Source of the DNA: a virus
Taxonomy: Duplodnaviria > Heunggongvirae > Uroviricota > Caudoviricetes
Reading direction: 5' to 3' (one strand)
DNA length: 64,000 nt
IMG/VR virus record: IMGVR_UViG_2671180890_000004
This document shows, in pieces, positions 2,305 through 21,795 of this stretch. Position 1 is the first letter of the stretch, and every line of letters begins with the position of its first letter. The notes beneath the pieces were generated by a model. It worked only from the letters and a program-made list of their open reading frames with translations, had not been told where the DNA came from and ran no database searches. A program made the position numbers and the translations under genes.

Positions 2305-2333
2305 TTGACTGGTGAGGTAATCTGCACCATAAT
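2305..2333 (+). promoter_or_regulatory. candidate sigma70 early promoter (TTGACT-17-CATAAT) driving ner/A/B
   Basis: TTGACT at 2305-2310, 17-nt spacer, CATAAT at 2328-2333, ~50 nt upstream of the ner start. Confidence 0.3.
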
Positions 2334-2380
2334 CTATCACACATAAGGCAAACATCATTGCATCAACAAAGGAGACAACG

Positions 2381-2569: not shown

Positions 2570-2615
2570 AGATTTTGAGTCTTTGTAAAAGGTTATCACA
2601 TATCGCAAAAGAGGT

Positions 2616-2930: not shown

Positions 2931-2940
2931 GGAGTAATAA

Positions 2941-3852
2941 ATGGGACGCACCAAATCACCGATTAACACTGAACTGAACGCCGAGGTACCGCTGTCGGAT
3001 GATCTCAATGTCAGTCTGAACGCCATGACACAGCATCGTATGGAGATCATGCAGCAGTTTGGCGATGGTCAGCCCTATGAGCGTGATCGCATAGTTCATG
3101 AGGCTCGGTTTTATATGGCACAGAGCGCTGAGGCCATGCTGGAAGCAGGTAAACGACTTATTATTCTCAAAGAAAATGAACCTCACGGGGACTTTGTTGG
3201 AATTGTAGAAGAACAACTTGGTCTGCATGTGCGCGCAGCACAACGAATGATGAAAGCATCTTTGAAATACCTTTCACCAAAACTAGAGCCAAAAGCGACA
3301 ACGTTGTCGCTTTTAGGTAAGGCAAAATTATTTGAACTTGTTGCTGAAGATGACGACGACCTTGCTGAACTGGCCGACGGTGGCACAGTTGCCGGACTGA
3401 CGCTTGACGATGTTGATCGCATGTCAGTACGTGAATTGCGTCAGGCCCTGCGCGAAGCGCGCGAAACCAACGCAGCACAACAGCGCGTACTCGCCGACAA
3501 AAATGAAAAAATAGACTCACTCTCCACCAGACTGGAGAAGAAATCCCGTATTCAGCCACCTGAGCCTGATGAAGAGGTGAAGAAACTGCGGGCAGAAGTG
3601 ACCGCGTTAGCGGTTGAGGCGGAATCTGCCATCGCCGTTCGACTGTCCAGCGCTTTTGAGACGCTGTGCGCATATTGTGCTGAAAACATGATTGATACCC
3701 CCAGAGACTTCATGGCGGGCCTGGTCTGTCAACTGGAAAGCACAGCGCGTAGCCTGCGCTCCACATTTGACCTGCCGGACGAGCCAACAGGCAATGCAGC
3801 GCCTTCATGGCTGACTGAGCCGACGCCACAGATTAACGGGCTGGAGGCATAA
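2941..3852 (+). CDS. hypothetical phage protein (303 aa)
   Basis: ORF with AAGGAG RBS immediately upstream of the transposase gene; acidic, coiled-coil-rich. Confidence 0.5.
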   Translation: MGRTKSPINTELNAEVPLSDDLNVSLNAMTQHRMEIMQQFGDGQPYERDRIVHEARFYMAQSAEAMLEAGKRLIILKENEPHGDFVGIVEEQLGLHVRAAQRMMKASLKYLSPKLEPKATTLSLLGKAKLFELVAEDDDDLAELADGGTVAGLTLDDVDRMSVRELRQALREARETNAAQQRVLADKNEKIDSLSTRLEKKSRIQPPEPDEEVKKLRAEVTALAVEAESAIAVRLSSAFETLCAYCAENMIDTPRDFMAGLVCQLESTARSLRSTFDLPDEPTGNAAPSWLTEPTPQINGLEA

Positions 3853-3855
3853 CCA

Positions 3856-5625
3856 ATGAATGCTGCCCTGACTGAACGACTGGTTTATGTCGCCCGCGCG
3901 GCACGTGACGCGGGGCATGGTAAACGCGGCGCAGTATACGACGCTGCCTGTGCTGAACTTGGCATGTCCCGCGCCACTCTGCTGCGCAGGCTGAAGGAGG
4001 TATCTGTGACTGATAAACGCAAAAAACGCGCCGATGCCGGGCGCAGCGCCCTGACCCGCGACGAAGCCGCGCTGATATCTGCCACACTGCGTGAGGCCAC
4101 CCGCAAGAACGGTAAGCGTCTCTATTCCATCGCGGATGCAGTGGAAACCCTGCGGGCTAACGGCTTTATATCCGCAGGCAGAACAGATGAAACCACCGGT
4201 GAGTTTTTCCCGTTGTCCGAAGATGCCATCAGCCGAGCCCTGCGTAACTATGGCCTGCACCCGGAACAACTGGATGCCCCTGCGCCGCATACCGAAGTGG
4301 CCAGTCTGCATCCCAATCATGTCTGGCAGATTGACGCCTCACTCTGCACGCTTTACTACCTGAGCAATGGACATAAAGGGCTGCAGGTGATGGACAGCGC
4401 GAAGTTCTACAAGAACAAGCCCGCTAACCTTGCCCGTATCGCCAGTGACCGCGTGTGGAGTTACGAGATTACCGACCATGCCAGCGGCTGGATTTACGTT
4501 GAGTATGTGACGGGCGCGGAATCAGGTGAGAACCTGTGTTCTGTGCTTATCAACGCCATGCAGGAGCGTGGCGGCGCAGACGTGCTGCACGGTGTGCCGA
4601 AAATACTCTATCTCGACCCCGGCTCGGCAAACACCGCGGGTATGACGAAAAACATGTGCCGCTCACTGGGCATCGACCTGATAGCGCACAAGCCGCATAA
4701 CGCCCGCGCCACCGGACAGGTGGAAAAGGCGCGGGACATTATCGAACGCAAGCTGGAGCCGGGTCTGAAGTTCCGGCCGGTTCACAGTCTGGAAGAACTC
4801 AACGCGCTGGCCGCGAAATGGCGCAGCCACTTTAACGCCACGGCTGTTCACAGCCGCCACGGTAAAACCCGCACGGATATCTGGCTGAAGATTACTGCTG
4901 AGCAGCTGAAAAAAGCGCCTTCCGTTGAGGTATGTCGTGAACTGGCTGTGGCGGCACCAGAACTCCGCAAAGTCACGCCAAAACTTCGTGTCTCGTTCCG
5001 GGGCACTGAATTTGACGTATCAACGGTACCGGGCGTACTGGTTGGTGAAAAACTGATGATTACCCGTAACCCGTGGCGCAGCGATGTGGCACAGGTGGTT
5101 CTGACCGGTGAGGACGGCCACGAGACGTTCTTCCTGGTCGAAGAGGTCAGAAAGAACGAGTTTGGCTTTGCTGAAGGCGCGGCGGTATTTGGCGAAAGTT
5201 ACAAAGCCCTGCCGGAAACCCCGGCGCAGATGGCGGCAAAAGAAACCGAAGCGCTGGTCACCGGTACAGACAACGCCGCAGATGCAGCTGCCGCACGCAA
5301 GGCGAAGGCGCTGCCGTTCGGCGGGCGGCTTGACCCGTATAAACATATCGACGACACCACACTTCCGGCCTATATGCCGAAGCGTGGTCAGGCCTCTGAC
5401 GTACGCGGGCCGCGCACTGAACAACGTCCCATGACTTATGTGGAGGCCGCGAAAGCCCTGCGCGATAAGTTCAGCGCCAACGGCTTTACCTGGACGCCGG
5501 AACATTACCGCCAGTTAACGGCACAGTATCCGGACGGCGTACCGGAAGCCGCACTGGATGAAGTCATGGCCACGCTGACCACGCCGGCCCGCAGCAGCGT
5601 TATCAGTATTGTTAACGGCAACTGA
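3856..5625 (+). CDS. Mu-family DDE transposase (A protein)
   Basis: Catalytic-core signatures in MuA-like context and spacing: WQIDASL, YLDPGSANT, GQVEKARD. GGAGG RBS upstream. Confidence 0.85.
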   Translation: MNAALTERLVYVARAARDAGHGKRGAVYDAACAELGMSRATLLRRLKEVSVTDKRKKRADAGRSALTRDEAALISATLREATRKNGKRLYSIADAVETLRANGFISAGRTDETTGEFFPLSEDAISRALRNYGLHPEQLDAPAPHTEVASLHPNHVWQIDASLCTLYYLSNGHKGLQVMDSAKFYKNKPANLARIASDRVWSYEITDHASGWIYVEYVTGAESGENLCSVLINAMQERGGADVLHGVPKILYLDPGSANTAGMTKNMCRSLGIDLIAHKPHNARATGQVEKARDIIERKLEPGLKFRPVHSLEELNALAAKWRSHFNATAVHSRHGKTRTDIWLKITAEQLKKAPSVEVCRELAVAAPELRKVTPKLRVSFRGTEFDVSTVPGVLVGEKLMITRNPWRSDVAQVVLTGEDGHETFFLVEEVRKNEFGFAEGAAVFGESYKALPETPAQMAAKETEALVTGTDNAADAAAARKAKALPFGGRLDPYKHIDDTTLPAYMPKRGQASDVRGPRTEQRPMTYVEAAKALRDKFSANGFTWTPEHYRQLTAQYPDGVPEAALDEVMATLTTPARSSVISIVNGN

Positions 5626-5635
5626 GGAGGGAAAC

Positions 5636-6802
5636 ATGCTGGTACTGAAGCAGCAACTGAAAGAAGCCCGTATTCCACAGGCGGTGGTGGCGAGAGCTGT
5701 CGATGTTTCTGAGGCCACGCTGGCCCAGATTGTGAATCATAACGCGTGGCCCCGCACCAGCCCCGGAGAAGTGCGCCGGCGTCTTGCGTCCTGGCTGGAA
5801 AGTCAGGGGATTGATACAACGAAGAGTTTTGATGCTGTACAGGGCGCGGCCACGCCCCGTACAGCGGGTACCACAGATAAAACGAGCCTCAGTGAGGAAG
5901 AGAATATGTTACTCAAAAAACAGGTGTTATTTCCAGCAACCAAAAAAGCGTTTGGTCTTTTCCGTGACCCGTTCGCCGACGAAGCCATGCAGGGTTCTGA
6001 TGATGTGTTCACCACCCCGGATATTCGCTACGTGCGTGAGGCGTTGTACCAGACAGCCCGTCATGGTGGGTTTATGGCCGTCATCGGTGAGTCCGGTGCG
6101 GGTAAATCCACGCTGCGCCGCGACCTGACTGAACGTATCAACCGCGAGAATGCGCCGGTAATTGTTATCGAGCCATACATCATCGCTATGGAAGACAACG
6201 ATGTGAAAGGGAAAACCCTGAAGGCAGCAGCGATTGCCGAAGCCATTATCAGTACCATCGCACCACTGGAAAGCATCAGACGCAGTCAGGACGCCCGCTT
6301 TCGCCAGTTGCATCGCGTCCTGAAAGACAGCAGCCAGGCGGGGTTCAGCCACGTTCTGGTGATTGAGGAGGCCCACAGTCTGCCCATTCCGACACTGAAA
6401 CACCTCAAACGCTTTTTTGAGCTGGAGTCCGGTTTCAAAAAACTGCTGTCCATCGTGCTGATTGGCCAGCCGGAACTGGCGACAAAACTGTCTGAACGCA
6501 ATATGGAAGTCCGTGAAGTCGTTCAGCGCTGTGAGGTGGTCGAACTTCTGCCTCTGGACAATAACCTTGAAGAGTTTCTGACGTTCAAACTGCAACGGGC
6601 CGGTAAACAACTGACGGACATTATGGACGCCAGCGCAGTGGATGCCATACGTGCCCGCCTGAGCAATCCGGGAAGTCATCGTAAAAATATGGTCAGCCTG
6701 CTGTATCCGCTGGCCGTCAGTAACCTGGTAATAGCCGCCATGAATCTGGCCGCTGAAATCGGGGTTCCACAGGTCAACGCTGACGTTGTCAAAGGGGTTT
6801 AA
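5636..6802 (+). CDS. MuB-like transposition ATPase (AAA+)
   Basis: Walker A GESGAGKST and Walker B VLVIEEAH; located directly after the transposase. Confidence 0.8.
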   Translation: MLVLKQQLKEARIPQAVVARAVDVSEATLAQIVNHNAWPRTSPGEVRRRLASWLESQGIDTTKSFDAVQGAATPRTAGTTDKTSLSEEENMLLKKQVLFPATKKAFGLFRDPFADEAMQGSDDVFTTPDIRYVREALYQTARHGGFMAVIGESGAGKSTLRRDLTERINRENAPVIVIEPYIIAMEDNDVKGKTLKAAAIAEAIISTIAPLESIRRSQDARFRQLHRVLKDSSQAGFSHVLVIEEAHSLPIPTLKHLKRFFELESGFKKLLSIVLIGQPELATKLSERNMEVREVVQRCEVVELLPLDNNLEEFLTFKLQRAGKQLTDIMDASAVDAIRARLSNPGSHRKNMVSLLYPLAVSNLVIAAMNLAAEIGVPQVNADVVKGV

Positions 6803-6804
6803 TA

Positions 6805-7074
6805 ATGAAATCCACCACAGGTATCAACCAGCAAATCAGCAAAGTGCAGTCAGCCATTATGGCGCTTAAGGCGACGAACACGGATGTACAAAGCATCACC
6901 ATCAGGGGTAACAAACCTGTCATCCGCGTTTCCCGGAGTGCGCATTGCATGCGCATGCTTGAGCAGGGAAAGGCCTGTTATCTGTATACCGGTCATGACC
7001 ACAGGGGACATTTCCGTCAGGGCGTTTTCGAACTGCACGGCTGTCGCGTCGTGTGGCCGGAATCTTTGTGGTAA
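6805..7074 (+). CDS. hypothetical early-region protein
   Basis: ORF in the semi-essential region between B and gam. Confidence 0.45.
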   Translation: MKSTTGINQQISKVQSAIMALKATNTDVQSITIRGNKPVIRVSRSAHCMRMLEQGKACYLYTGHDHRGHFRQGVFELHGCRVVWPESLW

Positions 7075-7101
7075 TCAGCACAACAGGAGGAGTCATAAAA
7101 T

Positions 7102-7632
7102 ATGGCAAAAAGTACAAAAGGGGCAAAACGTATCAAAGCCGCAGCAGCACTCTGGGTGCCGGGGACACGCGAAGAGGTCATTGAGGGAATCAGACTGCTT
7201 GGTGACGCGCAACGTGAACTGGTCAGGGCTGAAACAGAAATGAATGACACCATTGGCGACATCACCGCACGTTATGCCCCGCTCACCGAGAGCCTGAAAA
7301 AACGCATGGCCGAACTGCAGTCCGGTATTCAGACATGGTGTGAGGCACACCGTGATGAACTGACCGGCAACGGGAAGGTGAAGTTCGCTAACCTCACCAC
7401 CGGCGAGGTGCAGTGGCGAAACCGTCCGCCGTCAGTCAGTATCCGTGGGGCGGATAATGTTATTGAATTACTGAGACGTCTGGGGCTTGAGCGCTTTATC
7501 CGTGTAAAGGAGGAAATAAATAAAGACGCCATCCTGAATGAAAAGGACGCCGTGAAAAATATTCCCGGTATTACCATAAAAAGTGATATTGAGGATTTTT
7601 CAATAATTCCTTTTGAGCAGAATGTGCAGTAA
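7102..7632 (+). CDS. gam: host-nuclease inhibitor Gam (Mu Gam family)
   Basis: Strong recalled similarity to Mu Gam, e.g. RPPSVSIRG...LGLERFIR...GITIKSDIEDFSIIPFEQ. Confidence 0.8.
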   Translation: MAKSTKGAKRIKAAAALWVPGTREEVIEGIRLLGDAQRELVRAETEMNDTIGDITARYAPLTESLKKRMAELQSGIQTWCEAHRDELTGNGKVKFANLTTGEVQWRNRPPSVSIRGADNVIELLRRLGLERFIRVKEEINKDAILNEKDAVKNIPGITIKSDIEDFSIIPFEQNVQ

Positions 7633-7728
7633 AAACAGCATATAAGCTATTTAAAACAGCCTTTTCTTTTTTATTCCGGCATCAGCGCCGTGGGCTTCTG
7701 CACGCCGGAAACAGAGGAGAATTAAATC

Positions 7729-7923
7729 ATGATATTTAAATGTATTCAGTGCGAGAGGGATATAACAGCCCTGCGTTTTCACAGCGCCATCGCCGTGATG
7801 TCCGGTAAGTACCACGTACCTGCAGTACGCGTCACCCTGGTCTGTCCGTACTGCAGTCAGCATTTTTCGGCAGACGTGCCCGTCATGGAATTCTCCCGCC
7901 CTGACAGGGAGGACTCGCAATGA
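7729..7923 (+). CDS. small Cys-rich (zinc-ribbon-like) protein
   Basis: CxxC...CPYC cysteine pairs in a 64-aa ORF. Confidence 0.4.
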   Translation: MIFKCIQCERDITALRFHSAIAVMSGKYHVPAVRVTLVCPYCSQHFSADVPVMEFSRPDREDSQ

Positions 7924-8192
7924 TTACCCCACAGGAAGCACGACAGCGCACCCGAACCCTTGTTGAACACTATGTCAACGAGTGTGAATGCCGCGACCTC
8001 ACCGATGTGAAGCACGTCCTGACGGCGCTAATCAGCATGACCGCTCAGGCCATTGTGGCGACCAACGGAAAGGCGGCTGCCCTGCAGGTACTGGTGAACA
8101 CACTCACCCACACGGCAGAGCACGATGTGCCGTACCGGATGGAAACCACTGCAGAAGGCGGCCTGAACATCACCGTCGACCGGAAACACTGA
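7920..8192 (+). CDS. hypothetical protein
   Basis: ORF with start overlapping the upstream stop (coupled). Confidence 0.4.
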   Translation: MITPQEARQRTRTLVEHYVNECECRDLTDVKHVLTALISMTAQAIVATNGKAAALQVLVNTLTHTAEHDVPYRMETTAEGGLNITVDRKH

Positions 8193-8201
8193 GGGCGCGG
8201 C

Positions 8202-8507
8202 ATGACACGGAACACCGAACTCACCCGCACCGCCCTCTACCGTCTGGCCCTGCAGCGTTTCGGGCCGGACGCACAGGCCCTGAAACTGACAGAAGAGGCC
8301 GCTGAACTGGCGGCCAGTGCCGCCCGCAACCTGAACGGACAGGGCAGCGAAAGTGACCTCGCGGCAGAGCTGGCAGACGTGGAAATCATGACAGAGCAGC
8401 TGCGCCTTCAGGGAATGGACCGGCTGATTGACTTCCACAAACAGAAAAAACTGGAACGCCTTGCCGCACGGCTGGGCGTCATGTACACCGGAGATACTGA
8501 ACAATGA
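8202..8507 (+). CDS. MazG-like nucleotide pyrophosphohydrolase domain protein
   Basis: EEAAELAA...ELADVEIM helix pair typical of MazG/NTP-PPase. Confidence 0.45.
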   Translation: MTRNTELTRTALYRLALQRFGPDAQALKLTEEAAELAASAARNLNGQGSESDLAAELADVEIMTEQLRLQGMDRLIDFHKQKKLERLAARLGVMYTGDTEQ

Positions 8508-9187
8508 CAGACCAGGATAAACACATTGAGAAACTGAAAAAGTTGCTGGCGCTGGCCGCATCCGGCAACCCTCACGAGGCCGCTCTGGCACTGCGCCGTG
8601 CCCGTAAACTGATGGATGTTCACGGCATCACACATTCCGACATCGCCATGAGTGATATTGATGAAACCATCAGTCACTACTGGCCGACAGGCAGCCTCCG
8701 TCCACCGCGCTACATGCTGGGCCTGATGAACATCATCCGCGAGGCATTTGGTGTTAACTCCATCATTCACCCCGGCACATATCCGGGTGTGGGGTTCTAC
8801 GGCAACCGGGAACGGGCTGCACTGGCTGCGTACACCTGGGAAGTGCTGGCCCGCCAGCTGAAAAAGGCGCGTCAGCAATATATCAGCGCACAGAACAAAA
8901 GAATAAAAACTGCCACCCGTACCAGCCGTGGTGACCAGTTTGCTGAAGGCTGGGTGCTGGCCGTTATCAGTGAAATACAGTCCTTCGCCCTGACCGATGA
9001 CGAACGTGAACTGATGCAGCAGTGGCTGGAACATAAATACCCGCAGACGCAAACCACCAGGGCGCGTAAACCGGGAAGAAGCCGCAATGGCGACGCCTCG
9101 CGCTATGCGGGGTTTCTTGAAGGGCAGAACGTCAGACTGCACCGCCCGGTCAGTGGGCAGGAACAACAGAAACTGGAGGCCAGATGA
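8504..9187 (+). CDS. DUF2786-like phage protein
   Basis: N-terminal KLKKLLALAASGNPHEAALALRRARKLM signature. Confidence 0.5.
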   Translation: MTDQDKHIEKLKKLLALAASGNPHEAALALRRARKLMDVHGITHSDIAMSDIDETISHYWPTGSLRPPRYMLGLMNIIREAFGVNSIIHPGTYPGVGFYGNRERAALAAYTWEVLARQLKKARQQYISAQNKRIKTATRTSRGDQFAEGWVLAVISEIQSFALTDDERELMQQWLEHKYPQTQTTRARKPGRSRNGDASRYAGFLEGQNVRLHRPVSGQEQQKLEAR

Positions 9188-9414
9188 TTACGCTATCAGG
9201 TAAAAGCCGGAAATTAAAAGCCTGCCGAATATCTGCCAGATACCTTTTTGCCCGCGCCTTTTTTAAGAACGTCAGGCCGGGGATCACAATTGGTGTTATT
9301 GCCGGACGCGAACAGGTTGAAAAATACATGTCAGGTGCATGGTGGAATAACGACCCTGTCATTGCTGCCCGTAATATTCATATCAGTTGGGGGGATATTC
9401 AGAATGACGGCTGA
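9184..9414 (+). CDS. hypothetical protein
   Basis: ORF with overlapping stop/start on both sides. Confidence 0.3.
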   Translation: MITLSGKSRKLKACRISARYLFARAFFKNVRPGITIGVIAGREQVEKYMSGAWWNNDPVIAARNIHISWGDIQNDG

Positions 9415-9619
9415 ATCTGTTGTATGTGCCCTGTTCTGGTATTGTTTTGTCGGTTGGTGTACTGCTGAACTGCACCGCCGTTCAGGGTTTTATTCACGTT
9501 ACAGTGGTGCTGGCTACTGGATTAGCTGGTCGGTGATGTTCCTGTGCTGGCCTGTGGCGCTTCCTTTATATGTCGATTATATCGGTGGCGCAGGTAAAAG
9601 GAGCAACGATGATGACTAA
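9404..9619 (+). CDS. small membrane protein
   Basis: Two hydrophobic helices (VVCALFWYCFVGW, WSVMFLCWPVALPLYV). Confidence 0.35.
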   Translation: MTAESVVCALFWYCFVGWCTAELHRRSGFYSRYSGAGYWISWSVMFLCWPVALPLYVDYIGGAGKRSNDDD

Positions 9620-10061
9620 ACAACGTCTTATCCAGCTCATTCATATTGCCCGTAATGAACTGGGTATGGATGAAGACACCTACCGCCAGATGTTACAGGG
9701 GCTGACCGGTAAAGCCTCAACCAAAGGAATGGATACCACACAACTAAACTGCGTGCTGGAATCCATGAAAAGGAAAGGCTTTCGCGTTAAGCCTGCCGGA
9801 AAAGCCAGCTCCGGTTTACCGCTGGATAACCATCCGCAGTCCAGGAAAATCCGTGCGCTATGGCTTGAAATGGCTGCTGCCGGCATTGTTCGTGACCGTT
9901 CAGAAAATGCATTAGCGCGGTGGATCAAGCGGGAAACGGGCATCAGCGCCCTGCGCTGGCTCAGTACTGAACAGGCAAGCAGTGTTATTGAGAAACTGAA
10001 GAAGTGGCAGCGCAGAGCTGCGGGAGTCAAACATGAGCGACCTGAATCAGTTTCGAAGTAA
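9609..10061 (+). CDS. gemA: GemA-like protein (Mu gp16 family)
   Basis: Size and position immediately upstream of mor; AAGGAG RBS. Confidence 0.55.
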   Translation: MMTKQRLIQLIHIARNELGMDEDTYRQMLQGLTGKASTKGMDTTQLNCVLESMKRKGFRVKPAGKASSGLPLDNHPQSRKIRALWLEMAAAGIVRDRSENALARWIKRETGISALRWLSTEQASSVIEKLKKWQRRAAGVKHERPESVSK

Positions 10062-10431
10062 AGGGCCGGAACTCCTGGTGGAGCTGGCACAGCATACCTC
10101 TGAGACCGTTCGCGAGATTATTGATATTGAGCCCGCAATTGCCGACCAGATTGGTCAGGCCGTCGCGAACCGAATGATGCAGGTCTGGGGCGGGCAAAAC
10201 GTTTATTTCCCGATGGGCATGGTATGGAAGGTCAGTCAGCGCGACCGGGAAATCTTCAGGGAGTTTAACGGACGCAACCACCACGAACTGGCCCGCAAGT
10301 TTGGTGTTTCGCTTCAGTGGGTCTACAGCGTGGTTAAGCGGGTCAGAAAAGAAGAACTGGATCGGATGCAGGGCAGGTTGTTTGATGAAGATCTGCCAGA
10401 GGAGACGAAAGACGTTAACAAATCCAGATAA
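10033..10431 (+). CDS. mor: Mor-family middle-operon transcription activator
   Basis: C-terminal HTH (HELARKFGVSLQWVYSVVKRVRK) and position after gemA. Confidence 0.7.
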   Translation: MSDLNQFRSKGPELLVELAQHTSETVREIIDIEPAIADQIGQAVANRMMQVWGGQNVYFPMGMVWKVSQRDREIFREFNGRNHHELARKFGVSLQWVYSVVKRVRKEELDRMQGRLFDEDLPEETKDVNKSR

Positions 10432-10476
10432 TTCCTGCTTGTTAAAGTCCTTTCAAAAATCTCCTTATTGTATAAA

Positions 10477-10507
10477 AGCACGGTAGACCCCTTACCGTGC
10501 TTTTTTT
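10477..10507 (+). terminator. rho-independent terminator after mor
   Basis: Stem GCACGGTA / TACCGTGC followed by T7. Confidence 0.6.
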
Positions 10508-10545
10508 ATGCTCTCTCTTTAGTATTCAGGATGCAGGGAGAAAAT

Positions 10546-11178
10546 ATGTTTGACGTTTCGTTGTTAAATCTGCCATGGGCAACACTGGTGACCCTGACCA
10601 GTGGCTATATTGGGTATTTTATTGCGAATGTGGGACTGAAGGATCACCACAAGCCCATTGAGGTGACTTTTTCTTCGCTGATTTTTGGCCTGACAGCAAT
10701 GATGGCTTACCAGGCTGTTATGTGGGCAGGTCTGAATGCCTGGCTGGCAACACCACCAGCACTTCTGTGTGCCCTTACATGCGGTGCGTGGTGGCGCAGG
10801 TACGGTCGCAAATGGATGTACAGATTACTGTGGAATAATGATATTTCATGGTCTGACGATACCAGCTCAGCATGGCAGGCAATGTTTGATCAAACAGGCT
10901 TCAGCGTTACCGAGGTCAGAGTGATTCTTCGCGATGGTTCCGGTATGATGTCACGGCTGCCAGGGAACTTTGAAGAGTGGCCTAACGGTCCGTTTACCCT
11001 GGGGAATAAAGGCGATATGGTTCTTTACGTCACGCACAGCAGCCCTTCAGGCAGTAACGAATGGGAAGAGTATAAAGGCGTGGTTGATAAGTACTGGGGA
11101 GCTCTGGCAACCTATATTCCAGCAGATCAGATTGCCAGAGTGGAGATCAGGCGCGTTCGTGCAACGAACGATGAATGA
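10546..11178 (+). CDS. membrane protein with C-terminal soluble domain
   Basis: ATG at 10546 with GGGAGA RBS; three or four N-terminal hydrophobic helices. Last gene before the gabP junction. Confidence 0.45.
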   Translation: MFDVSLLNLPWATLVTLTSGYIGYFIANVGLKDHHKPIEVTFSSLIFGLTAMMAYQAVMWAGLNAWLATPPALLCALTCGAWWRRYGRKWMYRLLWNNDISWSDDTSSAWQAMFDQTGFSVTEVRVILRDGSGMMSRLPGNFEEWPNGPFTLGNKGDMVLYVTHSSPSGSNEWEEYKGVVDKYWGALATYIPADQIARVEIRRVRATNDE

Positions 11179-11526
11179 TGTTTATTTTTTCCCTGGGGCA
11201 GGGGCTGCCGGCATAGTGGTTTTATTGGCAGAGGAAGACGATTCTCCTTTTCTACCGGAATCGCGCTCGAACGTCACGATGTGCTTGCTTTTGGGCTTTT
11301 CTGAGTAATCCAGGCTATCATGCTTATTGTTTTGAGTAGTCATTGGAATCATCCTTTTTGTTGCGGGTCATGTTTCAGCAAACTCGATTCTAAGTTGCCA
11401 GGAAGGATGATTTCAATGCCCGACTTATCTATCGTATAGCGGAAAAGAATTTCAGTTCTGTTCACCAGAACCCATGTTAACCCACTCCAATTCGTTATTT
11501 ATCTCACGGATCCCCCTTCATTTATC

Positions 11527-11913
11527 TCATGTCTGATCAGGAATGCCTGGAACCCATGAGTGCAGGATCATGGCGGCGATGTTGGCTTCAAGTGGGATAA
11601 CCAGTACCCAAAACCACCAGTACAACCAGCCGATGGTATAGCCCGCCCAGCGGCCAATGGCTTTATCGGCATAGGTGGAAAACGAACCGGTATCGGGCGT
11701 GGCAACCGCCATTTCCGCCAACATCCGCATAATCATAACCACCAGTAATCCGGCGAACAGATAGGCCAGTAATACCGCCGGGCCCGCTTCGGCGATGGCG
11801 ACGCTGGAACCGACAAACAGACTTGCGCCGATAACACCGGCAATAGACAACATGGTGACGTGGCGTGACTTCAGCCCGCCGCCTAACTCATGTGGTTGCG
11901 ATGATTGCCCCAT
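11527..11913 (-). pseudogene. gabP: gabP, truncated GABA permease (N-terminal ~125 codons only)
   Basis: Near-identical to the E. coli GabP N-terminus up to ...HSWVPGIP, then diverges (DQT-stop); the remaining ~340 codons are absent from the window. Confidence 0.85.
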
Positions 11914-17708: not shown

Positions 17709-17735
17709 ATAAAAAAGCCCGCATCAGCGGGCTTT
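17709..17735 (-). terminator. rho-independent terminator (minus strand)
   Basis: Stem AAGCCCGC / GCGGGCTT; the U-tract is on the minus strand (A-run 17710-17716). Confidence 0.4.
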
Positions 17736-17863
17736 AATGTCATAGGGAGTCGCGACTCCGTTGCGTATCCTTTTTTGTCTCCTCACCGTCTGGTCGGTGT
17801 CCTGCTGAGACTTATAACTTCCTGTTTTTGTTGGTGTAGTCCTTACACCGTCCAATCATTATT

Positions 17864-17890
17864 TGGTGGAGCTGGCGGGAGTTGAACCCG
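17864..17890 (-). other. ssrA: 27-bp copy of the 3' end of ssrA (tmRNA): prophage attachment-site core
   Basis: TGGTGGAGCTGGCGGGAGTTGAACCCG is the reverse complement of the ssrA 3' terminus; sequence beyond it is not ssrA, so this is an att repeat, not a gene. Confidence 0.7.
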
Positions 17891-18321
17891 TGTCCATAGT
17901 TATGTAATTCATTGAATTTAAATAGCCAAATATTGTTGATTTTACACGCGGCTCTTTTGCGGAACTTTTTCTGTCCTGTTACTGTCTTACTATTTATTTT
18001 AAAATAGTTTCATTTGGAATTAATGGTTTGTGGTTGCAGTTTCGGAGATAGATAGCATTTTTTGCTAAAAAATATTTTTATAAAAAATGTGTGTAAAAAT
18101 GATGTTATGCACAGATTTATACACAGAGGCTTTGTAATAAACCAGATTATTTTGGATAAGTTTGTTTTTTTGTGATTTGTCAACAATATTATTGACTCTT
18201 GTTACTAAAGTGAGTGTTTTCTAAGGTGGCCAGAAGTTGTCCCTTCATGTAATCTTATTAGCCATAAAGAACAAAAAATAATTCAACATCATTACCAACT
18301 ATTTGTAAGATAAGGTTTTTA

Positions 18322-19137
18322 ATGTTGCAGCCAGCAAAAAAAGCATCAGTTATTAGCGCGCGGCTAACTAAATACCTCAAAGATGGAGTGAGGATTGATG
18401 ACTTTAGCTTTAGAAGGATGTTACGTGAGATTGAAGCACTTAGAGATCCTGTCTCTGAGGACTATCTTTTAGCGTTGGTCTATGGTGCACATGGTCAAGT
18501 GAATGAGGCGATAGGCTTCTTTGAGCGTTCCTTGCAGGTATGCCATAATGAGGTTGTTGCAAAGAATTTTCTTGTTTTCTTGTCAGATTACGGTACGTTG
18601 AAGAAAAGCTTTGAAACAAGCATTAAGCTTGCTGAAAGCTTCATATCCCCGTTTATTTATCTTCAAGCTTATGAAAACTCCCTCTTTATGGGGAAGATGG
18701 CGTTGGCGGAGAAGTATTTCCAGTCATACTCTAAATTGTTCGGAGATAAGGAGCCTGAAAAAATGGACAACCATCTTGATGAAGTTGTTTCCCAGGTCGA
18801 ATCCTTTAAGCAACGTGCCGATCTTTCTGGTTTAGAATATGAACTTATTTTCAATAATGTAGCCAATGTCATGGATTCTCAGAAGGTTCATCTTTCGGGA
18901 ATGCGTTTTTATAATATTTCGGAAGAGAAAGTGAATGCGATTGTATTCATGACAAAGTCTTCTGATGCTGAACAAATCGCTGATATGAATATTGAGCTTG
19001 CTTTTTCAATGGCTGAGCACGATTGTTTAGTCGGTAAAGATTTTGCTGTTTGGTTTGAATGTAAAGACACACATATTGAGCAGAATGCTATCTCCGAATT
19101 AGGTCTGATTACCCGGAGGGTTGCACATGCCGGTTAA
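18322..19137 (+). CDS. hypothetical cargo protein (271 aa), first gene of att-int cassette
   Basis: AT-rich ORF between the att core and int; no motif recognised. Confidence 0.5.
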   Translation: MLQPAKKASVISARLTKYLKDGVRIDDFSFRRMLREIEALRDPVSEDYLLALVYGAHGQVNEAIGFFERSLQVCHNEVVAKNFLVFLSDYGTLKKSFETSIKLAESFISPFIYLQAYENSLFMGKMALAEKYFQSYSKLFGDKEPEKMDNHLDEVVSQVESFKQRADLSGLEYELIFNNVANVMDSQKVHLSGMRFYNISEEKVNAIVFMTKSSDAEQIADMNIELAFSMAEHDCLVGKDFAVWFECKDTHIEQNAISELGLITRRVAHAG

Positions 19138-19510
19138 TAGTCAAGATTTTCTCGGTTTTGCAAAAGACTGTCATCAACGTAATGACGAAATCGGCTATCG
19201 AAATGCTATAGCAAGATCCTACTATGGCGCTTACCATCATGTCTTGCCTTGTATGGTAAACGGGCCGAAAGACAGTCATCAGGGGCTAATCAATTATTTG
19301 CAGGGCGATGCTTCAAGAGGAAGTGAAGTATATGAAGCTAGATATCTAAAAGGGATTAGTTTTATCCTGAGTCAACTTAAAGCTCAGAGGATTGTTGCAG
19401 ACTATCGACTTGATCAATCGGTCACTTCTAAACAGTCTGAAGTTGCGATTCTAACAACTGAGAGGCTCTTTGCTAAGTGTACGGAAATGCTTAAATCGAG
19501 AGCCTCCTAA
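19127..19510 (+). CDS. hypothetical cargo protein (~128 aa), coupled to upstream gene
   Basis: ATG at 19127 with GGAGGG RBS, overlapping the upstream stop by 11 nt; contains an R-x6-H segment (RSYYGAYHH) that could be HEPN-like (speculative). Confidence 0.45.
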   Translation: MPVNSQDFLGFAKDCHQRNDEIGYRNAIARSYYGAYHHVLPCMVNGPKDSHQGLINYLQGDASRGSEVYEARYLKGISFILSQLKAQRIVADYRLDQSVTSKQSEVAILTTERLFAKCTEMLKSRAS

Positions 19511-19517
19511 TTGATAA

Positions 19518-19539
19518 AGCCACTTAAGTGGCTTTTTTT
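19518..19539. terminator. bidirectional terminator between cargo operon and int
   Basis: Stem AGCCACTT / AAGTGGCT followed by T7. Confidence 0.5.
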
Positions 19540-20696
19540 GTGATATTGCTGGTCGTATTACCGTCATATTCCTTTAAATATGAACCATAATGACGAAATA
19601 ACATTTCCGGCCCTTTATGCCCCATTTGAGCTGCAAGCCAAAACAGGTTTGCTCCCCGGCTGATATGGCGGGTGGCGAATGTATGCCTAGTTTGATATGG
19701 ATTTCTGTAACGAATACCTGCTTTTCGCAATGTTGGCACCCATGCTTTTTTCCTGATTGCATCAGCACTTGCCCAGGGCTTATTGGTCTTTGGATCTTCA
19801 AAGACAGTAGCATCCTTCATGAATGTAAATGGCTTCTGATTTATCAGCGCCAACATTGCTTCTTCAGTCAGTTCAACTTTACGGGTACCGGCTTTTGTCT
19901 TTGTCCCTTTGATAACACCGACAACACTTGCGCTCTGGACATGGGCAGTTTTTCCAACAAAGTCGATATCACGCCATCGAAGGGCACATAATTCAGAACT
20001 ACGCAGGCCTGTATGTATAGCGAACCGGAACAGATTTTCCCATTGTTTTTTTCCGGCTGCTGCTAGTAATGCATCAACTTCTGCTGGTGATAGCGGATCA
20101 ACCACGTAGCTGCTTTCTGCTTCTGACTTATCACTTTGGTAGCGCGAAGCAGTTACCAACGATACGGGGTTAATTTGAAGTACCCCATCGGTTACGGCTT
20201 CATCAAGTGCTGACCGCAGGAAAGATAACTGGTTGCGAATTGTTTTTAAGGTCGTTTTCTGGCTTTGAATCCACGCTTTCAGGATTGCTGGTGTTAATTC
20301 ACTTGCAGGGCAAATGTGGAGTGAGGCTAACGCACTACGGCATTTTTTATAACCACCAATCGTAGAGGGTGAAAGTTTTCTTGTTTCGCAGATTTCAAGA
20401 TATTCGTCCAGGTACATCTTTACCGTTTTGCCTGCAGCAGCATTACCAAAAATTTTCAAACGAGCAGAACGGGGAAAATATTCTGCATAAATGAATGTTC
20501 CCCTTTCGATCTTATTATGGATTTCGCCGAGTGTACGCTCGGCGTATTTAATGTTCTTTGGTGTTACTTCCAGATTGGAAAGCGGCTCACGACATCTAAC
20601 TCCTTTGTAGGTGAAAGTTATATTGATCGTTTCTCCCTGGCGGTGTTTCCTGATTGTTACGCCGCGCGGTAGTTTGAGCAGTTTTGTCTGGCCCAT
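19524..20696 (-). CDS. int: tyrosine recombinase (phage integrase)
   Basis: C-terminal catalytic region with conserved R (LRSSELCALRWRD), HxxR (HTFATRH) and tyrosine near LFRHYGSY; adjacent to the att core. Confidence 0.85.
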   Translation of the reverse strand: MGQTKLLKLPRGVTIRKHRQGETINITFTYKGVRCREPLSNLEVTPKNIKYAERTLGEIHNKIERGTFIYAEYFPRSARLKIFGNAAAGKTVKMYLDEYLEICETRKLSPSTIGGYKKCRSALASLHICPASELTPAILKAWIQSQKTTLKTIRNQLSFLRSALDEAVTDGVLQINPVSLVTASRYQSDKSEAESSYVVDPLSPAEVDALLAAAGKKQWENLFRFAIHTGLRSSELCALRWRDIDFVGKTAHVQSASVVGVIKGTKTKAGTRKVELTEEAMLALINQKPFTFMKDATVFEDPKTNKPWASADAIRKKAWVPTLRKAGIRYRNPYQTRHTFATRHISRGANLFWLAAQMGHKGPEMLFRHYGSYLKEYDGNTTSNITKKAT

Positions 20697-20902
20697 TTTG
20701 CAACCTCACTAAGATCAATCCACCTCTCCTTAACGCCTTCAACCTTTAAAACCTGAACACCTTCACGCCAAACACCGCGCTGTACACGTTTGTTTATTGC
20801 TTCAGGAGTTTCGCCAGTTTCTTTGCAATAAGTTGAGATAGGAACACAATCGAGGTTCAGCATACGTTTCTCCATTATCCCGTCTGCACACGGGAGCAAC
20901 AT
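20657..20902 (-). CDS. xis: excisionase-like DNA-binding protein
   Basis: Small basic protein overlapping the int start; likely true start at MEKRM (20875) with AGGAG-like RBS. Confidence 0.6.
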   Translation of the reverse strand: MLLPCADGIMEKRMLNLDCVPISTYCKETGETPEAINKRVQRGVWREGVQVLKVEGVKERWIDLSEVAKWARQNCSNYRAA

Positions 20903-20904
20903 TA

Positions 20905-21795
20905 TTAACGAATAGTGTCGTTACTTTGAAGTACAGCAAATGCCATTAATACTTCTAAAGTATATCTTCTATAAAATTTAACAAAACCAACATAGAAAAC
21001 ATAGACGAAGAAAAAGCTAAGCATTATTGAAAGTAAACTATAAAGATAATCACTATGAGTACATAATCGATAAATAAAGGTTGGAACTGATACCCAAAAT
21101 GAAATTATAAAGATTAAACATATGTTTCTGCAAAAACCATATAATGCAACATAGTTTTGAATTTTTGTTTGATGTTGTTTTGAAAACTCATAAACATAAT
21201 GATATGCCAATCTGAAGAGATCATCATCAAGTCCGTTTTTATCTTGTAATAATTGGCGATTTGTTATGAACTTTTTCTCATAACCTTCTTTGATCATTAA
21301 CCATGTTGTATTAGCTAAATGAAATGGTAGAGATTGAGAATAACATAGTTTTTGTGTTATAAAATCCCATAGTATTATTGGACATAATACGCATTTGATT
21401 ATGCGATTCTTTATTTTTGTTTTTTTATCAGCGCTTCTCTCATCGCATGATGGGCTACAAATGCTTTCTGAGGTATCTATCAATTTTTTAAATAGATATT
21501 TGGAAGGATATCCTAATTCTTTATTCATGTATTTTTCGATAAAAAATGCTGACGTGATAGAAATAAAATGTCCAGCTATATAAGATATAATAACTATTGA
21601 AGCGTAGTTCAAAATGCCAAAGATTTGACTTTGACCTCTGAGCAATTCACTTAAGTCAATAACAATATCTAGATCGAATGTCAAACCACAGAAATACATT
21701 AATAGGATGAAAAAACCACCTGGTATTAAATATCCAAGAAAGTCATAGAATGAGAATGGATTTTGATTCATTGTTGCTCTCCAATAATTTTTCAA
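20905..21795 (-). CDS. polytopic membrane protein (296 aa), AT-rich cargo
   Basis: Very AT-rich codon usage; several predicted TM helices; immediately upstream of xis in the leftward operon. Confidence 0.5.
   Translation of the reverse strand: MKNYWRATMNQNPFSFYDFLGYLIPGGFFILLMYFCGLTFDLDIVIDLSELLRGQSQIFGILNYASIVIISYIAGHFISITSAFFIEKYMNKELGYPSKYLFKKLIDTSESICSPSCDERSADKKTKIKNRIIKCVLCPIILWDFITQKLCYSQSLPFHLANTTWLMIKEGYEKKFITNRQLLQDKNGLDDDLFRLAYHYVYEFSKQHQTKIQNYVALYGFCRNICLIFIISFWVSVPTFIYRLCTHSDYLYSLLSIMLSFFFVYVFYVGFVKFYRRYTLEVLMAFAVLQSNDTIR

What the first reader, a model, noticed from the sequence alone, without database searches (positions are those of the whole stretch)
17891..19539. Translationally coupled two-gene cargo operon between the att core and integrase
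Genes 18322..19137 (271 aa) and 19127..19510 (~128 aa) overlap by 11 nt, with a GGAGGG RBS inside the first gene's 3' end. They lie in AT-rich DNA between the ssrA-derived att core and int, a known hotspot for defence and toxin-antitoxin cargo, and end in a strong terminator shared with int. The second protein has an R-x6-H segment that might indicate a HEPN-like RNase, but this is weak evidence.
Basis: partly seen in the sequence, partly recalled or inferred. Interest (0 to 1): 0.7.

Follow-up and report, generated by a model that had tools for sequence, protein, structure and literature searches.

The report
Prophage TPR–HEPN two-gene cassette
A prophage in this E. coli chromosome carries, between its attachment site and its integrase, a strictly conserved pair of overlapping genes: a repeat-containing partner protein followed by a small HEPN-type (RNase-like) protein. 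The pair looks like an untested toxin–antitoxin or anti-phage module, not a housekeeping operon.

Summary
Gene A (18322-19137, 271 aa) and gene B (19127-19510, 127 aa) overlap by 11 nt, with GGAGGG 6 nt before B's ATG. They lie in 38-41% GC DNA between a 28-nt ssrA-derived att core (17863-17890) and a convergent integrase.

B is a HEPN protein of the PF05168/UPF0332 class. A has three TPR repeats plus a ~100-aa alpha/beta C-terminal domain with no detectable relatives and no nucleotidyltransferase motif.

A-then-B adjacency is strict: 85 of 85 informative loci across Enterobacterales, Aeromonas, Gilliamella, a betaproteobacterial MAG, phage contigs and a small Acinetobacter plasmid. Most junctions overlap by 10-14 nt. 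A diverges faster than B.

The cassette occupies classic moron sites in temperate phages. In E. coli the same integrase occurs in 396 genomes and the cassette in 44. Other genomes hold other cargo in this slot, including a PD-Lambda-5-like methylase.

Best reading: a type II-like HEPN toxin/effector held by a TPR partner, serving abortive infection or element stabilisation. Toxicity, RNase activity and defence are all untested. It matches no PADLOC model and neither of the two DefensePredictor systems compared (DS-28, DS-40).

The parts
17712..17895 (-). Displaced original 3' end of ssrA plus its terminator (chromosomal side of the prophage junction). A 92%-identical copy of 185 nt sits next to the intact ssrA at the other prophage end.
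   Evidence: blastn of the two ends; terminator-like site 17735-17714 on the - strand; this stretch is present in 3,940 E. coli records.
17863..17890 (-). att core: 28 nt identical to the ssrA 3' end (CGGGTTCAACTCCCGCCAGCTCCACCAA); this is the prophage boundary.
   Evidence: Single copy in the window, 0 matches expected by chance; longest exact match to ssrA of the same genome; partial tmRNA hit at E 6e-6.
18179..18196 (.). Near-perfect palindrome GTCAACAATATTATTGAC. A GTCAA-N-TTGAC element is present in most of 10 aligned upstream regions from different phages. It is a candidate operator.
   Evidence: the repeat finder I4; upstream alignment A6; palindrome scan. Its function is inferred.
18226..18256 (+). 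Promoter-like conserved block: GTGGCC (-35-like, invariant TGG at 18227-18229), an 18-nt spacer, then TGTAATCTT (invariant TGTA..CTT at 18248-18256).
   Evidence: Invariant columns in alignment A6 of 10 loci whose A proteins are only 33-59% identical to the window's. The consensus sigma-70 scan did not pick it up, so promoter activity is inferred.
18322..19137 (+). Gene A, 271 aa: N-terminal helices, three TPR repeats (about residues 42-150), and a C-terminal alpha/beta domain (about 150-250, DMNxELA motif at 221-227) of unknown fold class. It is the predicted partner/neutraliser of B.
18753..18765 (+). Internal AAGGAG followed by ATG (M148), at the boundary between the TPR half and the C-terminal domain. 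It is used as the restart ORF in a natural frameshift lineage.
   Evidence: a +1 frameshift at codon 123 in at least 18 contigs; the 124-aa C-terminal-domain ORF and B are both intact there.
19115..19120 (+). Shine-Dalgarno sequence GGAGGG for gene B, located inside the 3' end of gene A.
   Evidence: Sequence; GGAGG-like SD and overlapping junctions are conserved across loci.
19127..19510 (+). Gene B, 127 aa: five-helix HEPN domain of the PF05168/UPF0332 class. Invariant residues are E21, R25, N26, R30, Y32, Y33, H37, H51, R88, D92 and Y93. It is the predicted RNase-type effector/toxin.
   Evidence: Profile vs PDB: 9xbd_A 2.8e-5, 9xbc_A 1.5e-4, 2hsb (UPF0332 AF0298) 0.016; AF2 pLDDT 92; Foldseek top hits are HEPN proteins; 25/30 relatives hit PF05168; invariant residues.
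19516..19542 (+). Intrinsic terminator for the A-B operon: 8-bp stem, 4-nt loop, U7 tract. The hairpin overlaps the last codons of int.
19524..20696 (-). Tyrosine integrase (Arm-DNA-bind_2 + Phage_integrase), convergent with A-B. Excisionase lies at 20657-20902 (-).
   Evidence: Pfam 1e-23 and 1.4e-16; phrog_2917 excisionase 8.3e-45.

Best explanation
Genes A and B form a self-contained, mobile two-gene cassette carried as a 'moron' by temperate phages, and occasionally by a small plasmid.

B is a small HEPN protein of the PF05168/UPF0332 class. This is the class in which an Asp replaces the His of the Rx4-6H motif and a conserved His lies elsewhere. B most likely acts as an RNA-cleaving effector, that is, a toxin.

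A is translated first and is coupled to B. It is non-enzymatic: three TPR repeats plus a novel C-terminal alpha/beta domain. A most likely binds B and holds it inactive, in the manner of a type II toxin-antitoxin pair. The C-terminal domain is the likely neutralising part. The TPR half is a possible sensor or regulatory surface.

When A is lost, titrated or altered, B would be freed to cut RNA and stop growth. Triggers could be a superinfecting phage, or loss of the element. That would give abortive infection or superinfection exclusion for the lysogen, and/or stabilisation of the prophage or plasmid.

Shown here: gene structure, coupling, HEPN identity, TPR identity, strict pairing, mobility and moron locations.

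Inferred: RNase activity, toxicity, neutralisation by binding, the sensor role of the TPR, and the defence phenotype.
For: - HEPN identity of B: a profile of 30 relatives hits solved HEPN proteins (9xbd_A 2.8e-5, 9xbc_A 1.5e-4, AF0298/2hsb 0.016), with the motifs RAYYA, SH..I and R..sDY aligned. 25/30 relatives hit Pfam PF05168 (best 2e-5). The AF2 model is a five-helix bundle (pLDDT 92), and its best structural neighbours are HEPN proteins.
- Possible active site in B: nine invariant charged or polar residues across 48 unique sequences down to 26% identity. R-x3-D-Y is present in 48/48. This fits the 'D replaces H, conserved H elsewhere' description of HEPN-T/PF05168 (PMC3710099).
- A is not an enzyme: only six positions are >=90% conserved in 56 sequences, and none is a catalytic motif. 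A GS..DxD pattern occurs in 2/56, at unrelated positions.
- Strict pairing with A upstream: 11/11 B-seeded genome loci, 44/44 A-seeded viral loci and 30/30 informative metagenome loci.
- Coupling is conserved: 28 of 38 unique junctions overlap by 10-14 nt and most of the rest have gaps of 2-16 nt (two outliers: a 41-nt overlap and one truncated B), mostly with a GGAGG-like SD.
- The pair is inherited as a unit: pairwise identities of A and B correlate at r = 0.94. A diverges faster than B in 99.8% of pairs (34% vs 53% mean identity). Both are under purifying selection (pN << pS).
- Locations: the att-int slot with two different integrase families, the slot before the lysis genes, the Mu-like mor-lysis slot, the tail region, and a 10-kb mobilizable Acinetobacter plasmid.
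- The E. coli slot is a swap site that holds defence-like cargo in sister prophages.
- Natural variants fit the toxin-antitoxin expectation: one locus has A intact and only a truncated B ORF, and an E. coli lineage has the TPR half frameshifted while the C-terminal-domain ORF and B stay intact.
- In HEPN/MNT pairs the upstream gene is the antitoxin and HEPN is the RNase toxin (PMC7641770; PMC3710099).
Against: - No toxicity, RNase or phage-challenge data exist for this family.
- The window protein itself scores below every Pfam threshold.
- Structural matches to HEPN are weak in E-value terms (best 1.1e-2, TM 0.57-0.68).
- The canonical Rx4-6H motif is absent. Some HEPN domains without it are non-catalytic (PMC3710099).
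- In the text read here, toxicity was demonstrated for RX4HXY-class HEPN proteins; no toxicity test of PF05168-class ('Class II') proteins was seen (PMC7641770).
- A has no recognisable DNA-binding domain for the autoregulation usual in type II systems.
- The A-B complex was not modelled.
- No PADLOC system matches either protein. There is only a weak HEPN_IX hit (1.3e-3 for the window protein, best 9e-6 in the family).
- The frameshift lineage could equally mean that B is harmless without full-length A.
Confidence: 0.5

Rival explanations
1. The cassette is a pure addiction (post-segregational killing) module. It is a toxin-antitoxin pair that only stabilises the prophage or plasmid and has no role against other phages.
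For: It is present on a 10-kb mobilizable plasmid alongside mob, rep and chr genes. It sits next to att/int, where loss by excision would be penalised. It has toxin-antitoxin-like gene order and coupling.
Against: The TPR module is conserved in all full-length members, but simple addiction does not need it. The cassette also sits at the slot before the lysis genes and in tail-region moron sites, which is typical of lysogenic-conversion or defence cargo. Sister prophages carry defence-like cargo in the same slot. The two roles are not mutually exclusive.
Confidence: 0.2
2. The pair is non-toxic. B is a non-catalytic HEPN that binds RNA or a nucleotide, and A is a TPR scaffold. Together they would regulate a host or phage process, for example lysogeny control or counter-defence, rather than kill the cell.
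For: The canonical Rx4-6H motif is absent. HEPN domains lacking it are proposed to be binding modules (PMC3710099). An E. coli lineage tolerates a frameshift in A while B stays intact. All 44 complete E. coli genomes keep both genes intact at >=99% identity.
Against: Nine invariant charged or polar residues, including R88/D92/Y93/H51, persist across sequences down to 26% identity. That looks like an active site. The same motifs occur in MNT-associated PF05168 HEPNs, which are regarded as toxins. The strict upstream-partner arrangement with overlapping stop and start is the toxin-antitoxin pattern.
Confidence: 0.2
3. Neutralisation is enzymatic, as in type VII HEPN/MNT systems. A would covalently modify B, for example on the invariant Y93, rather than simply binding it.
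For: B belongs to the HEPN class normally paired with minimal nucleotidyltransferases. It keeps an invariant Tyr next to the catalytic motif, the position AMPylated in HepT (Y104; PMC7641770).
Against: A has no GS..DxD motif (2/56 chance matches). No NTP_transf Pfam hit appears in 87 members. Its C-terminal topology, alpha-alpha-beta-beta-alpha-beta, is not the nucleotidyltransferase alpha-beta-alpha-beta core; that comparison rests on my own knowledge of the fold. Almost no polar residues are conserved in A.
Confidence: 0.05
4. The two reading frames are chance ORFs in AT-rich intergenic DNA.
For: Low GC. Pfam gives the window proteins only sub-threshold TPR hits for A and none for B.
Against: Both proteins have hundreds of relatives. 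Synteny holds in 85/85 loci. pN << pS. The AF2 models are confident.
Confidence: 0.01

Closest known systems
HEPN/MNT toxin-antitoxin systems, especially 'Class II' (PF05168 HEPN + PF01909 MNT), and type VII HepT/MntA
   Same: Two-gene operon with the partner upstream and a small (~125-135 aa) HEPN downstream, often overlapping. B shares the PF05168/UPF0332 motifs (RAYYA, SH, R..DY). It lacks RX4HXY, exactly as described for Class II (PMC7641770).
   Different: The partner is not a nucleotidyltransferase. It is a ~255-270 aa TPR protein with a novel C-terminal domain, no GS..DxD motif and no conserved catalytic residues. Neutralisation, if any, must be by binding. The carriers are temperate phages of Gammaproteobacteria, not archaea or thermophiles.
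HEPN families linked to TPR/Sel1 proteins in Anantharaman et al. 2013 (LA2681: fused to or in operon with TPR; AbiU2: in operon with a Sel1-repeat protein)
   Same: A HEPN domain combined with a TPR-type repeat protein in a conflict-system context (PMC3710099).
   Different: Those HEPN families keep the canonical Rx4-6H motif, whereas B is of the PF05168 D-variant class. Direct homology of A or B to those families was not tested here because no sequences were at hand.
RnlA-RnlB / LsoA-LsoB (HEPN toxin plus labile antitoxin, anti-T4 abortive infection in E. coli)
   Same: The working model is the same: a HEPN RNase held by a protein antitoxin and released on infection. This comparison rests on my own knowledge, not on a test here.
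   Different: RnlA and LsoA are large multidomain toxins encoded upstream of a small antitoxin. No sequence relationship was detected in PADLOC or Pfam scans.
DefensePredictor DS-28 (experimentally validated E. coli pair: 163-aa HEPN nuclease plus a 252-aa partner)
   Same: A two-gene E. coli accessory system of similar total size that contains a small HEPN protein (PMC13092281).
   Different: No homology: hhalign probability is 0.2% for the HEPN proteins and 0.3% for the partners. In DS-28 the HEPN gene comes first and has the canonical RNSVAH motif. The accessions of A and B are absent from that paper's tables as held here, some of which were cut when stored.
PD-Lambda-5 and other cargo of the same att-int slot
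   Same: They occupy the identical position, between the ssrA att core and the same integrase, in sister prophages.
   Different: The proteins are unrelated: a methylase matching PD-Lambda-5_B at 5.8e-124 plus an ATPase whose best PADLOC matches are PtuA/GajA-type models.

Membership tests
HEPN superfamily (gene B) | Four- to five-helix up-down bundle with HEPN topology | tested here: met
   The AF2 model has pLDDT 92 and five helices. The Foldseek PDB top hits are HEPN proteins (2hsb, sacsin HEPN 3o10, 2q00, 1o3u, 1wol, AbiV), though E-values are weak at 0.011-0.5 and TM is 0.5-0.68.
HEPN superfamily (gene B) | Significant profile similarity to recognised HEPN proteins or the Pfam HEPN model | tested here: met
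   The family profile hits 9xbd_A at 2.8e-5, 9xbc_A at 1.5e-4 and 2hsb at 0.016. 25/30 relatives hit PF05168, best 2e-5. The window protein alone has no Pfam hit.
HEPN superfamily (gene B) | Rx4-6H catalytic motif at the canonical position | tested here: not met
   The canonical position carries R88-x3-D92-Y93 in 48/48 sequences. An Rx4-6H in the C-terminal half occurs in only 10/48 and is not conserved. This matches the documented PF05168 variant in which 'D replaces H, conserved H elsewhere' (H51) (PMC3710099).
HEPN superfamily (gene B) | RNase activity | not testable with these tools
   Needs biochemistry.
Type VII HEPN/MNT toxin-antitoxin | The partner is a minimal nucleotidyltransferase with GSX10DXD (PF01909) | tested here: not met
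   No NTP_transf hit in 87 A-family members. The motif occurs in 2/56 at unrelated positions. The predicted topology is alpha-alpha-beta-beta-alpha-beta.
Type VII HEPN/MNT toxin-antitoxin | RX4HXY motif in the toxin, with the Tyr as AMP acceptor | tested here: not met
   The motif is R-x3-D-Y. A Tyr is invariant next to it (Y93), but the His is absent.
Type II toxin-antitoxin module | Two small adjacent co-directional genes, antitoxin first, with translational coupling | tested here: met
   The overlap is 11 nt here. 28/38 unique junctions overlap by 10-14 nt. A-then-B order holds in 85/85 loci. A is larger (271 aa) than a typical antitoxin.
Type II toxin-antitoxin module | The toxin arrests growth, and the antitoxin neutralises it by direct binding | not testable with these tools
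   No complex prediction or experiment was possible. Indirect evidence only: the natural variants.
Type II toxin-antitoxin module | The antitoxin has a DNA-binding domain that autoregulates the operon | tested here: inconclusive
   A has no HTH, RHH or AbrB hit. There is only a sub-threshold VapB15 hit at E 0.048. A conserved palindrome does lie upstream.
TPR repeat proteins (N-terminal half of gene A) | Tandem 34-residue helix-turn-helix repeats matching TPR profiles | tested here: met
Known anti-phage defence systems (PADLOC-DB v2.0.0) | A match of either protein to a system model | tested here: not met
   A has no hit. B has only a weak hit to the generic HEPN_IX model, 1.3e-3 (family best 9e-6, 11/30 members).

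The most novel reading that the evidence does not exclude
The cassette is a previously unrecognised minimal sensor-effector immune system of temperate phages. A TPR protein with a new C-terminal 'clamp' domain would directly gate a D-variant (PF05168-class) HEPN RNase, without any NTPase or nucleotidyltransferase. Binding of an invading phage's protein to the TPR surface would release the nuclease and abort infection. It would be the first functional assignment for the non-MNT branch of PF05168 HEPN proteins, and would define a new antitoxin/sensor fold.
Probability: 0.3. Interest if true: 0.7.

Novelty: new variant of a known kind. Interest (0 to 1): 0.55.

Why it matters
HEPN nucleases are the effectors of many immune systems (Cas13, Csm6, RnlA, AbiD/F, HepT). 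PF05168-class HEPNs are very abundant, yet they have been studied almost only as partners of nucleotidyltransferases.

Here a branch of that class has swapped its partner for a non-enzymatic TPR protein. It travels as a compact 1.2-kb cassette between temperate phages, chromosomes and a plasmid.

If it is toxic or defensive, it adds three things:
- a new neutralisation and sensing logic for HEPN toxins;
- a new protein fold for an antitoxin;
- another cargo type for the ssrA prophage att-int hotspot in uropathogenic E. coli, including CFT073.

If it is not toxic, it would show that this invariant HEPN residue constellation serves a non-nuclease role.

Tried and rejected
- Single-sequence searches of B found nothing: Pfam and NCBIfam gave 0 hits, and phmmer against PDB gave 0 hits. 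Only family profiles worked.
- The top PDB 'hits' of the B profile were polyubiquitins. These are an artefact of summing a 25-residue L..D.R.lsDY.l match over nine repeats; each single stretch has an E-value of about 400. I rejected them.
- The search for related loci with the deep A alignment failed because no stretch was conserved enough. The shallower alignment A3 worked.
- The search for homologous proteins with the A profile returned only 12 proteins, a limit of its word index. The exhaustive representative search gave 265.
- I tested whether the cassette is DefensePredictor DS-28, and whether the neighbouring 296-aa membrane protein is DS-40. There is no similarity in either case.
- Accession searches in that paper's supplements and in the literature returned nothing.
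- Searches for the 9XBD structure paper and for UPF0332 + HEPN found nothing relevant.
- There is no type III-style RNA antitoxin: no tandem repeats of note, and no Rfam family beyond the tmRNA fragment.
- The 5' leader 18240-18330 has no significant fold (z -0.98).
- The consensus sigma-70 scan found no convincing promoter upstream of A. The promoter-like block I report rests on cross-locus conservation only.
Full report
**Setting.** The window is 100% identical to the chromosome of E. coli G749. CFT073 carries the same region at 99.2% identity.
- To the left lie the chromosomal genes gabT, gabD, lhgO and glaH (csiD).
- At 17863-17890 there is a 28-nt exact copy of the 3' end of ssrA on the minus strand. 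It occurs only once in the window, with 0 matches expected by chance, and gets a partial Rfam tmRNA hit at E 6e-6.
- The complete ssrA gene lies 235 nt beyond the right end of the window.
- Everything from about 17890 to the window end is therefore one lambdoid prophage of about 46 kb integrated into ssrA. Its genes run from int, xis and yfdR/Q/P through a repressor region, Q, lysis, terminase and tail genes.
- The exact core sits inside a 185-nt stretch duplicated at 92% identity, which includes the ssrA terminator. The copy at 17712-17895 is the displaced chromosomal original, present in 3,940 E. coli records.

**The observation.** It is correct in every coordinate.
- Gene A is 18322-19137 (271 aa) and gene B is 19127-19510 (127 aa).
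- They overlap by 11 nt, and GGAGGG at 19115-19120 lies 6 nt before B's ATG.
- GC is 0.38-0.41 over the genes and 0.30-0.32 in the 431-nt upstream spacer, against 0.53-0.56 in the chromosomal flank.
- The hairpin at 19516-19535 is an 8-bp stem of about -12 kcal/mol (z -2.8). Seven U follow it on the plus strand only.
- On the minus strand no U tract follows, and the int stop codon (19524-19526) lies inside the stem. It is a unidirectional terminator of moderate strength for A-B, not a strong shared one.

**Gene B is a HEPN protein.**
- Alone, it hits nothing in Pfam, NCBIfam or PDB.
- A profile of 30 relatives hits solved 'HEPN domain-containing proteins' 9xbd_A (2.8e-5) and 9xbc_A (1.5e-4), and the UPF0332 protein AF0298, 2hsb (0.016).
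- Higher-ranked polyubiquitin hits are an artefact of a short motif summed over repeats.
- The 9xbd alignment lines up three motifs: RAYYA in helix 2, S-H at the start of helix 3 (H51), and R-x3-D-Y (R88, D92, Y93).
- 25 of 30 relatives hit Pfam PF05168, best 2e-5. Some sources name relatives 'UPF0332 family' or 'HEPN domain-containing'.
- The AlphaFold2 model is a confident five-helix bundle (pLDDT 92). Its best structural neighbours in the PDB are HEPN proteins, although with weak scores (E 0.011-0.5, TM 0.5-0.68).
- Across 48 unique sequences down to 26% identity, E21, R25, N26, A27, R30, Y32, Y33, H37, H51, L81, R88, D92 and Y93 are invariant.
- R-x3-D-Y is present in 48/48, whereas a canonical Rx4-6H in the C-terminal half occurs in only 10/48.
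[quoted passage not shown] It also matches what Yao et al. call Class II HEPN, which lacks RX4HXY (PMC7641770).
The HEPN call was right for a partly wrong reason.

**Gene A is a TPR protein with an unknown C-terminal domain.**
- Alone, it gives only sub-threshold TPR hits and matches phrog_17809, a family of unknown function, at 3.8e-38.
- An exhaustive profile search of 1.84 billion cluster representatives found 265 proteins at E<=1e-3. Roughly 100 of those listed are single-stretch, full-length matches of 245-290 aa. The rest are long generic TPR proteins hit on residues about 40-110.
- The AF2 model (pLDDT 81, pTM 0.77) shows helices to residue 140. After that comes helix 152-166, helix 170-187, a beta hairpin (191-199 and 204-211), helix 216-231 and strand 242-247.
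- This C-terminal domain has no Pfam hit in any of the 87 members and no solved relative by sequence.
- Only six positions of A are >=90% conserved in 56 sequences (K7, A63, F67, N82, F162, N223). The nucleotidyltransferase GS..DxD pattern is absent (2/56 chance matches).
- A is therefore not an MNT and very probably not an enzyme.

**The pair is a strict, mobile unit.**
- Every locus seeded with B has an A homologue immediately upstream on the same strand: 11/11 species genomes and 30/30 informative metagenome contigs. One further contig is cut at B.
- Every locus seeded with A has B immediately downstream: 44/44 IMG/VR viral contigs, although one has only a truncated B ORF.
- The species genomes include Mixta, Serratia, Pseudocitrobacter, Enterobacter, Xenorhabdus, Aeromonas, Gilliamella and a betaproteobacterial MAG.
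- The pair is also on the 10-kb mobilizable Acinetobacter plasmid p5AsACE. Its A homologue is annotated 'tetratricopeptide repeat protein' and matches the A profile at hhalign probability 94%; its B matches at 7.6e-22.
- It is also in Klebsiella phage ST405-OXA48phi1.3, where B is intact but mis-annotated.
- Of 38 unique junctions, 28 overlap by 10-14 nt and most others have gaps of 2-16 nt, generally with a GGAGG-like SD inside A.
- Pairwise identities of A and B correlate at r = 0.94, so the two genes are inherited together.
- A is the more diverged partner in 99.8% of pairs (mean 34% vs 53% identity).
- Both genes are under purifying selection (pN 0.25 vs pS 0.75 or more). Between G749 and a CFT073-like copy, A has 7 non-synonymous and 2 synonymous changes while B has 0 and 1.

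**Where the cassette sits.**
- In several phage contigs it lies, as here, directly before a convergent integrase. At least two unrelated integrase families are involved.
- In others it lies just before the holin/endolysin genes, downstream of RusA-like or methyltransferase genes.
- In Aeromonas Mu-like prophages it lies between the mor region and the endolysin.
- It is also found among tail genes, and in plain chromosomal spots (Mixta murJ-flgN; Gilliamella frr-MFS).
- These are the classic 'moron' positions of temperate phages.
- In E. coli complete genomes, the integrase of this prophage occurs at 95-99% identity in 396 genomes, but A-B occurs in only 44 (0.8% of 5,426). All 44 copies are >=99% identical and intact.
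- Sister prophages fill the same att-int slot with other genes. UTI89 and SF-468 have a three-gene set including a STAS-like protein. Ec-042 has an ATPase with PtuA/GajA-type matches plus a methylase matching PD-Lambda-5_B at 5.8e-124. R12 has a single 259-aa gene.

**Regulatory anatomy.**
- Ten upstream regions were aligned. Their A proteins are only 33-59% identical to the window's.
- Most carry a GTCAA-N-TTGAC palindrome; it is at 18179-18196 here.
- All share an invariant TGG (18227-18229) and TGTA..CTT (18248-18256), spaced like a -35 and an extended -10.
- I read this as the cassette's own promoter plus a candidate operator. This is inference: the simple sigma-70 scan did not pick it up.

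**Natural variants.**
- An E. coli lineage seen in at least 18 contigs has a +1 frameshift at codon 123 of A. The TPR half is truncated.
- A 124-aa ORF then restarts at M148 behind an AAGGAG that is also present in the window (18753-18765). That ORF covers the whole C-terminal domain, and B is intact and identical.
- One viral contig has A intact and only a truncated B ORF.
- Both cases are what one expects if B is harmful and the C-terminal domain of A is the neutralising part. They are also compatible with a harmless B.

**Mechanism proposed.** B is a HEPN RNase-type effector, and A holds it inactive by direct binding, as in a type II pair. This rests on five points:
- the HEPN identity and invariant polar cluster of B;
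- the non-enzymatic nature and faster divergence of A;
- the strict partner-first, coupled arrangement, which is the arrangement in HEPN/MNT systems, where HEPN is the toxin (PMC3710099, PMC7641770);
- the carriage by phages and a small plasmid;
- the natural variants.

The TPR half would be a sensor or regulatory surface, and release of B would give abortive infection and/or post-segregational killing. None of the functional steps is shown. I put 0.5 on this model as a whole.

**Rivals.**
- Addiction only, with no defence role: 0.2.
- A non-toxic binding or regulatory pair: 0.2.
- Enzymatic (type VII-like) neutralisation: 0.05.
- Chance ORFs: 0.01.

**Comparison with known systems.**
- The closest is the Class II HEPN/MNT pair, from which this differs in the defining partner: the MNT features were tested and not met.
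- HEPN-TPR/Sel1 associations are recorded for other HEPN families (LA2681, AbiU2) in PMC3710099. I could not test homology to them.
- The cassette matches no PADLOC v2 system.
- It is unrelated to the validated DefensePredictor pair DS-28.
- Its accessions are absent from that study's tables as held here, some of which were cut when stored.
- I found no paper on it.
- I therefore class it as a new variant of a known kind: a HEPN toxin/effector module with a new partner class. It has moderate interest until toxicity or defence is shown.

Noticed in passing
window 20905-21795 (-): A 296-aa multi-pass membrane protein lies between xis and yfdR in very AT-rich DNA (GC 0.27-0.30). It matches phrog_12528 (unknown function) and weakly matches the type VI-B CRISPR accessory protein Csx27 (PADLOC 1.4e-5). 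It is present in some prophages with the same integrase (UTI89, SF-468) and replaced by two small genes in others (Ec-042, R12). It looks like a second moron. It shows no similarity to DefensePredictor DS-40.
   Followed up: partly
window 60144-64000 (REase 62792-64000 -, C5 methyltransferase 61324-62757 +, GIY-YIG LEM-3-like 60144-60917 -): The opposite, ssrA-proximal end of the same prophage carries a type II restriction-modification pair and a GIY-YIG protein next to the tail-fibre genes. Both ends of this prophage are therefore loaded with defence-type cargo. Coordinates were converted from the G749 annotation.
   Followed up: no
window about 1-11,400; gabP remnant about 11539-11913: By the G749 annotation, a Mu-like transposable prophage (Mor, gp16, Gam, DDE transposase, ExeA/MuB-like ATPase, Dam methylase, lysis genes) lies next to a truncated amino-acid permease pseudogene. 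I take the pseudogene to be gabP from its position, and the prophage appears to have inserted into it.
   Followed up: no
window 17712-17895 versus NZ_CP014488.1 2766701-2766884 (L013 14702-14885): The att duplication is much longer than the exact 28-nt core. A 185-nt stretch at 92% identity covers the ssrA 3' end and its terminator. The phage therefore supplies a replacement 3' end and terminator for ssrA.
   Followed up: yes
window 18179-18196 and 18226-18256; alignment A6 of 10 loci: Non-coding elements upstream of gene A are conserved across phages whose A proteins are only 33-59% identical to the window's. They are a GTCAA-N-TTGAC palindrome and the invariant blocks TGG and TGTA..CTT. In one subgroup there is also a leader hairpin, GATTGCTT...AAGCAAC.
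   Followed up: partly
L062 3001-4190 (GCA_028491845.1) and at least 17 further contigs: An E. coli lineage has a +1 frameshift at codon 123 of gene A. An ORF restarts at M148 behind AAGGAG and encodes only the C-terminal domain. Gene B is intact and identical to the window's.
   Followed up: partly
L014 2566-4436 (UTI89), L015 1699-4411 (Ec-042), L017 3640-4419 (R12): The same att-int slot holds alternative cargo. UTI89 has a 303-aa protein, a STAS-like protein and a 199-aa protein, none with a PADLOC hit. Ec-042 has a 577-aa ATPase with PtuA/GajA/AriA-type matches plus a methylase matching PD-Lambda-5_B (5.8e-124). R12 has a 259-aa protein with no hit.
   Followed up: partly
L098 about 4260-4650 (Klebsiella phage ST405-OXA48phi1.3, MK416008.1): The B homologue is intact in one frame (hmmsearch 1.1e-34). 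GenBank annotates two short ORFs (43 and 71 aa) over the stretch instead of one B gene.
   Followed up: yes
L099 2222-3378 (Acinetobacter schindleri plasmid p5AsACE, NZ_CP015620.1): The A-B pair also sits on a 10-kb MOBQ mobilizable plasmid, next to chromate-resistance genes. This is the only plasmid hit among 72,556 records.
   Followed up: partly
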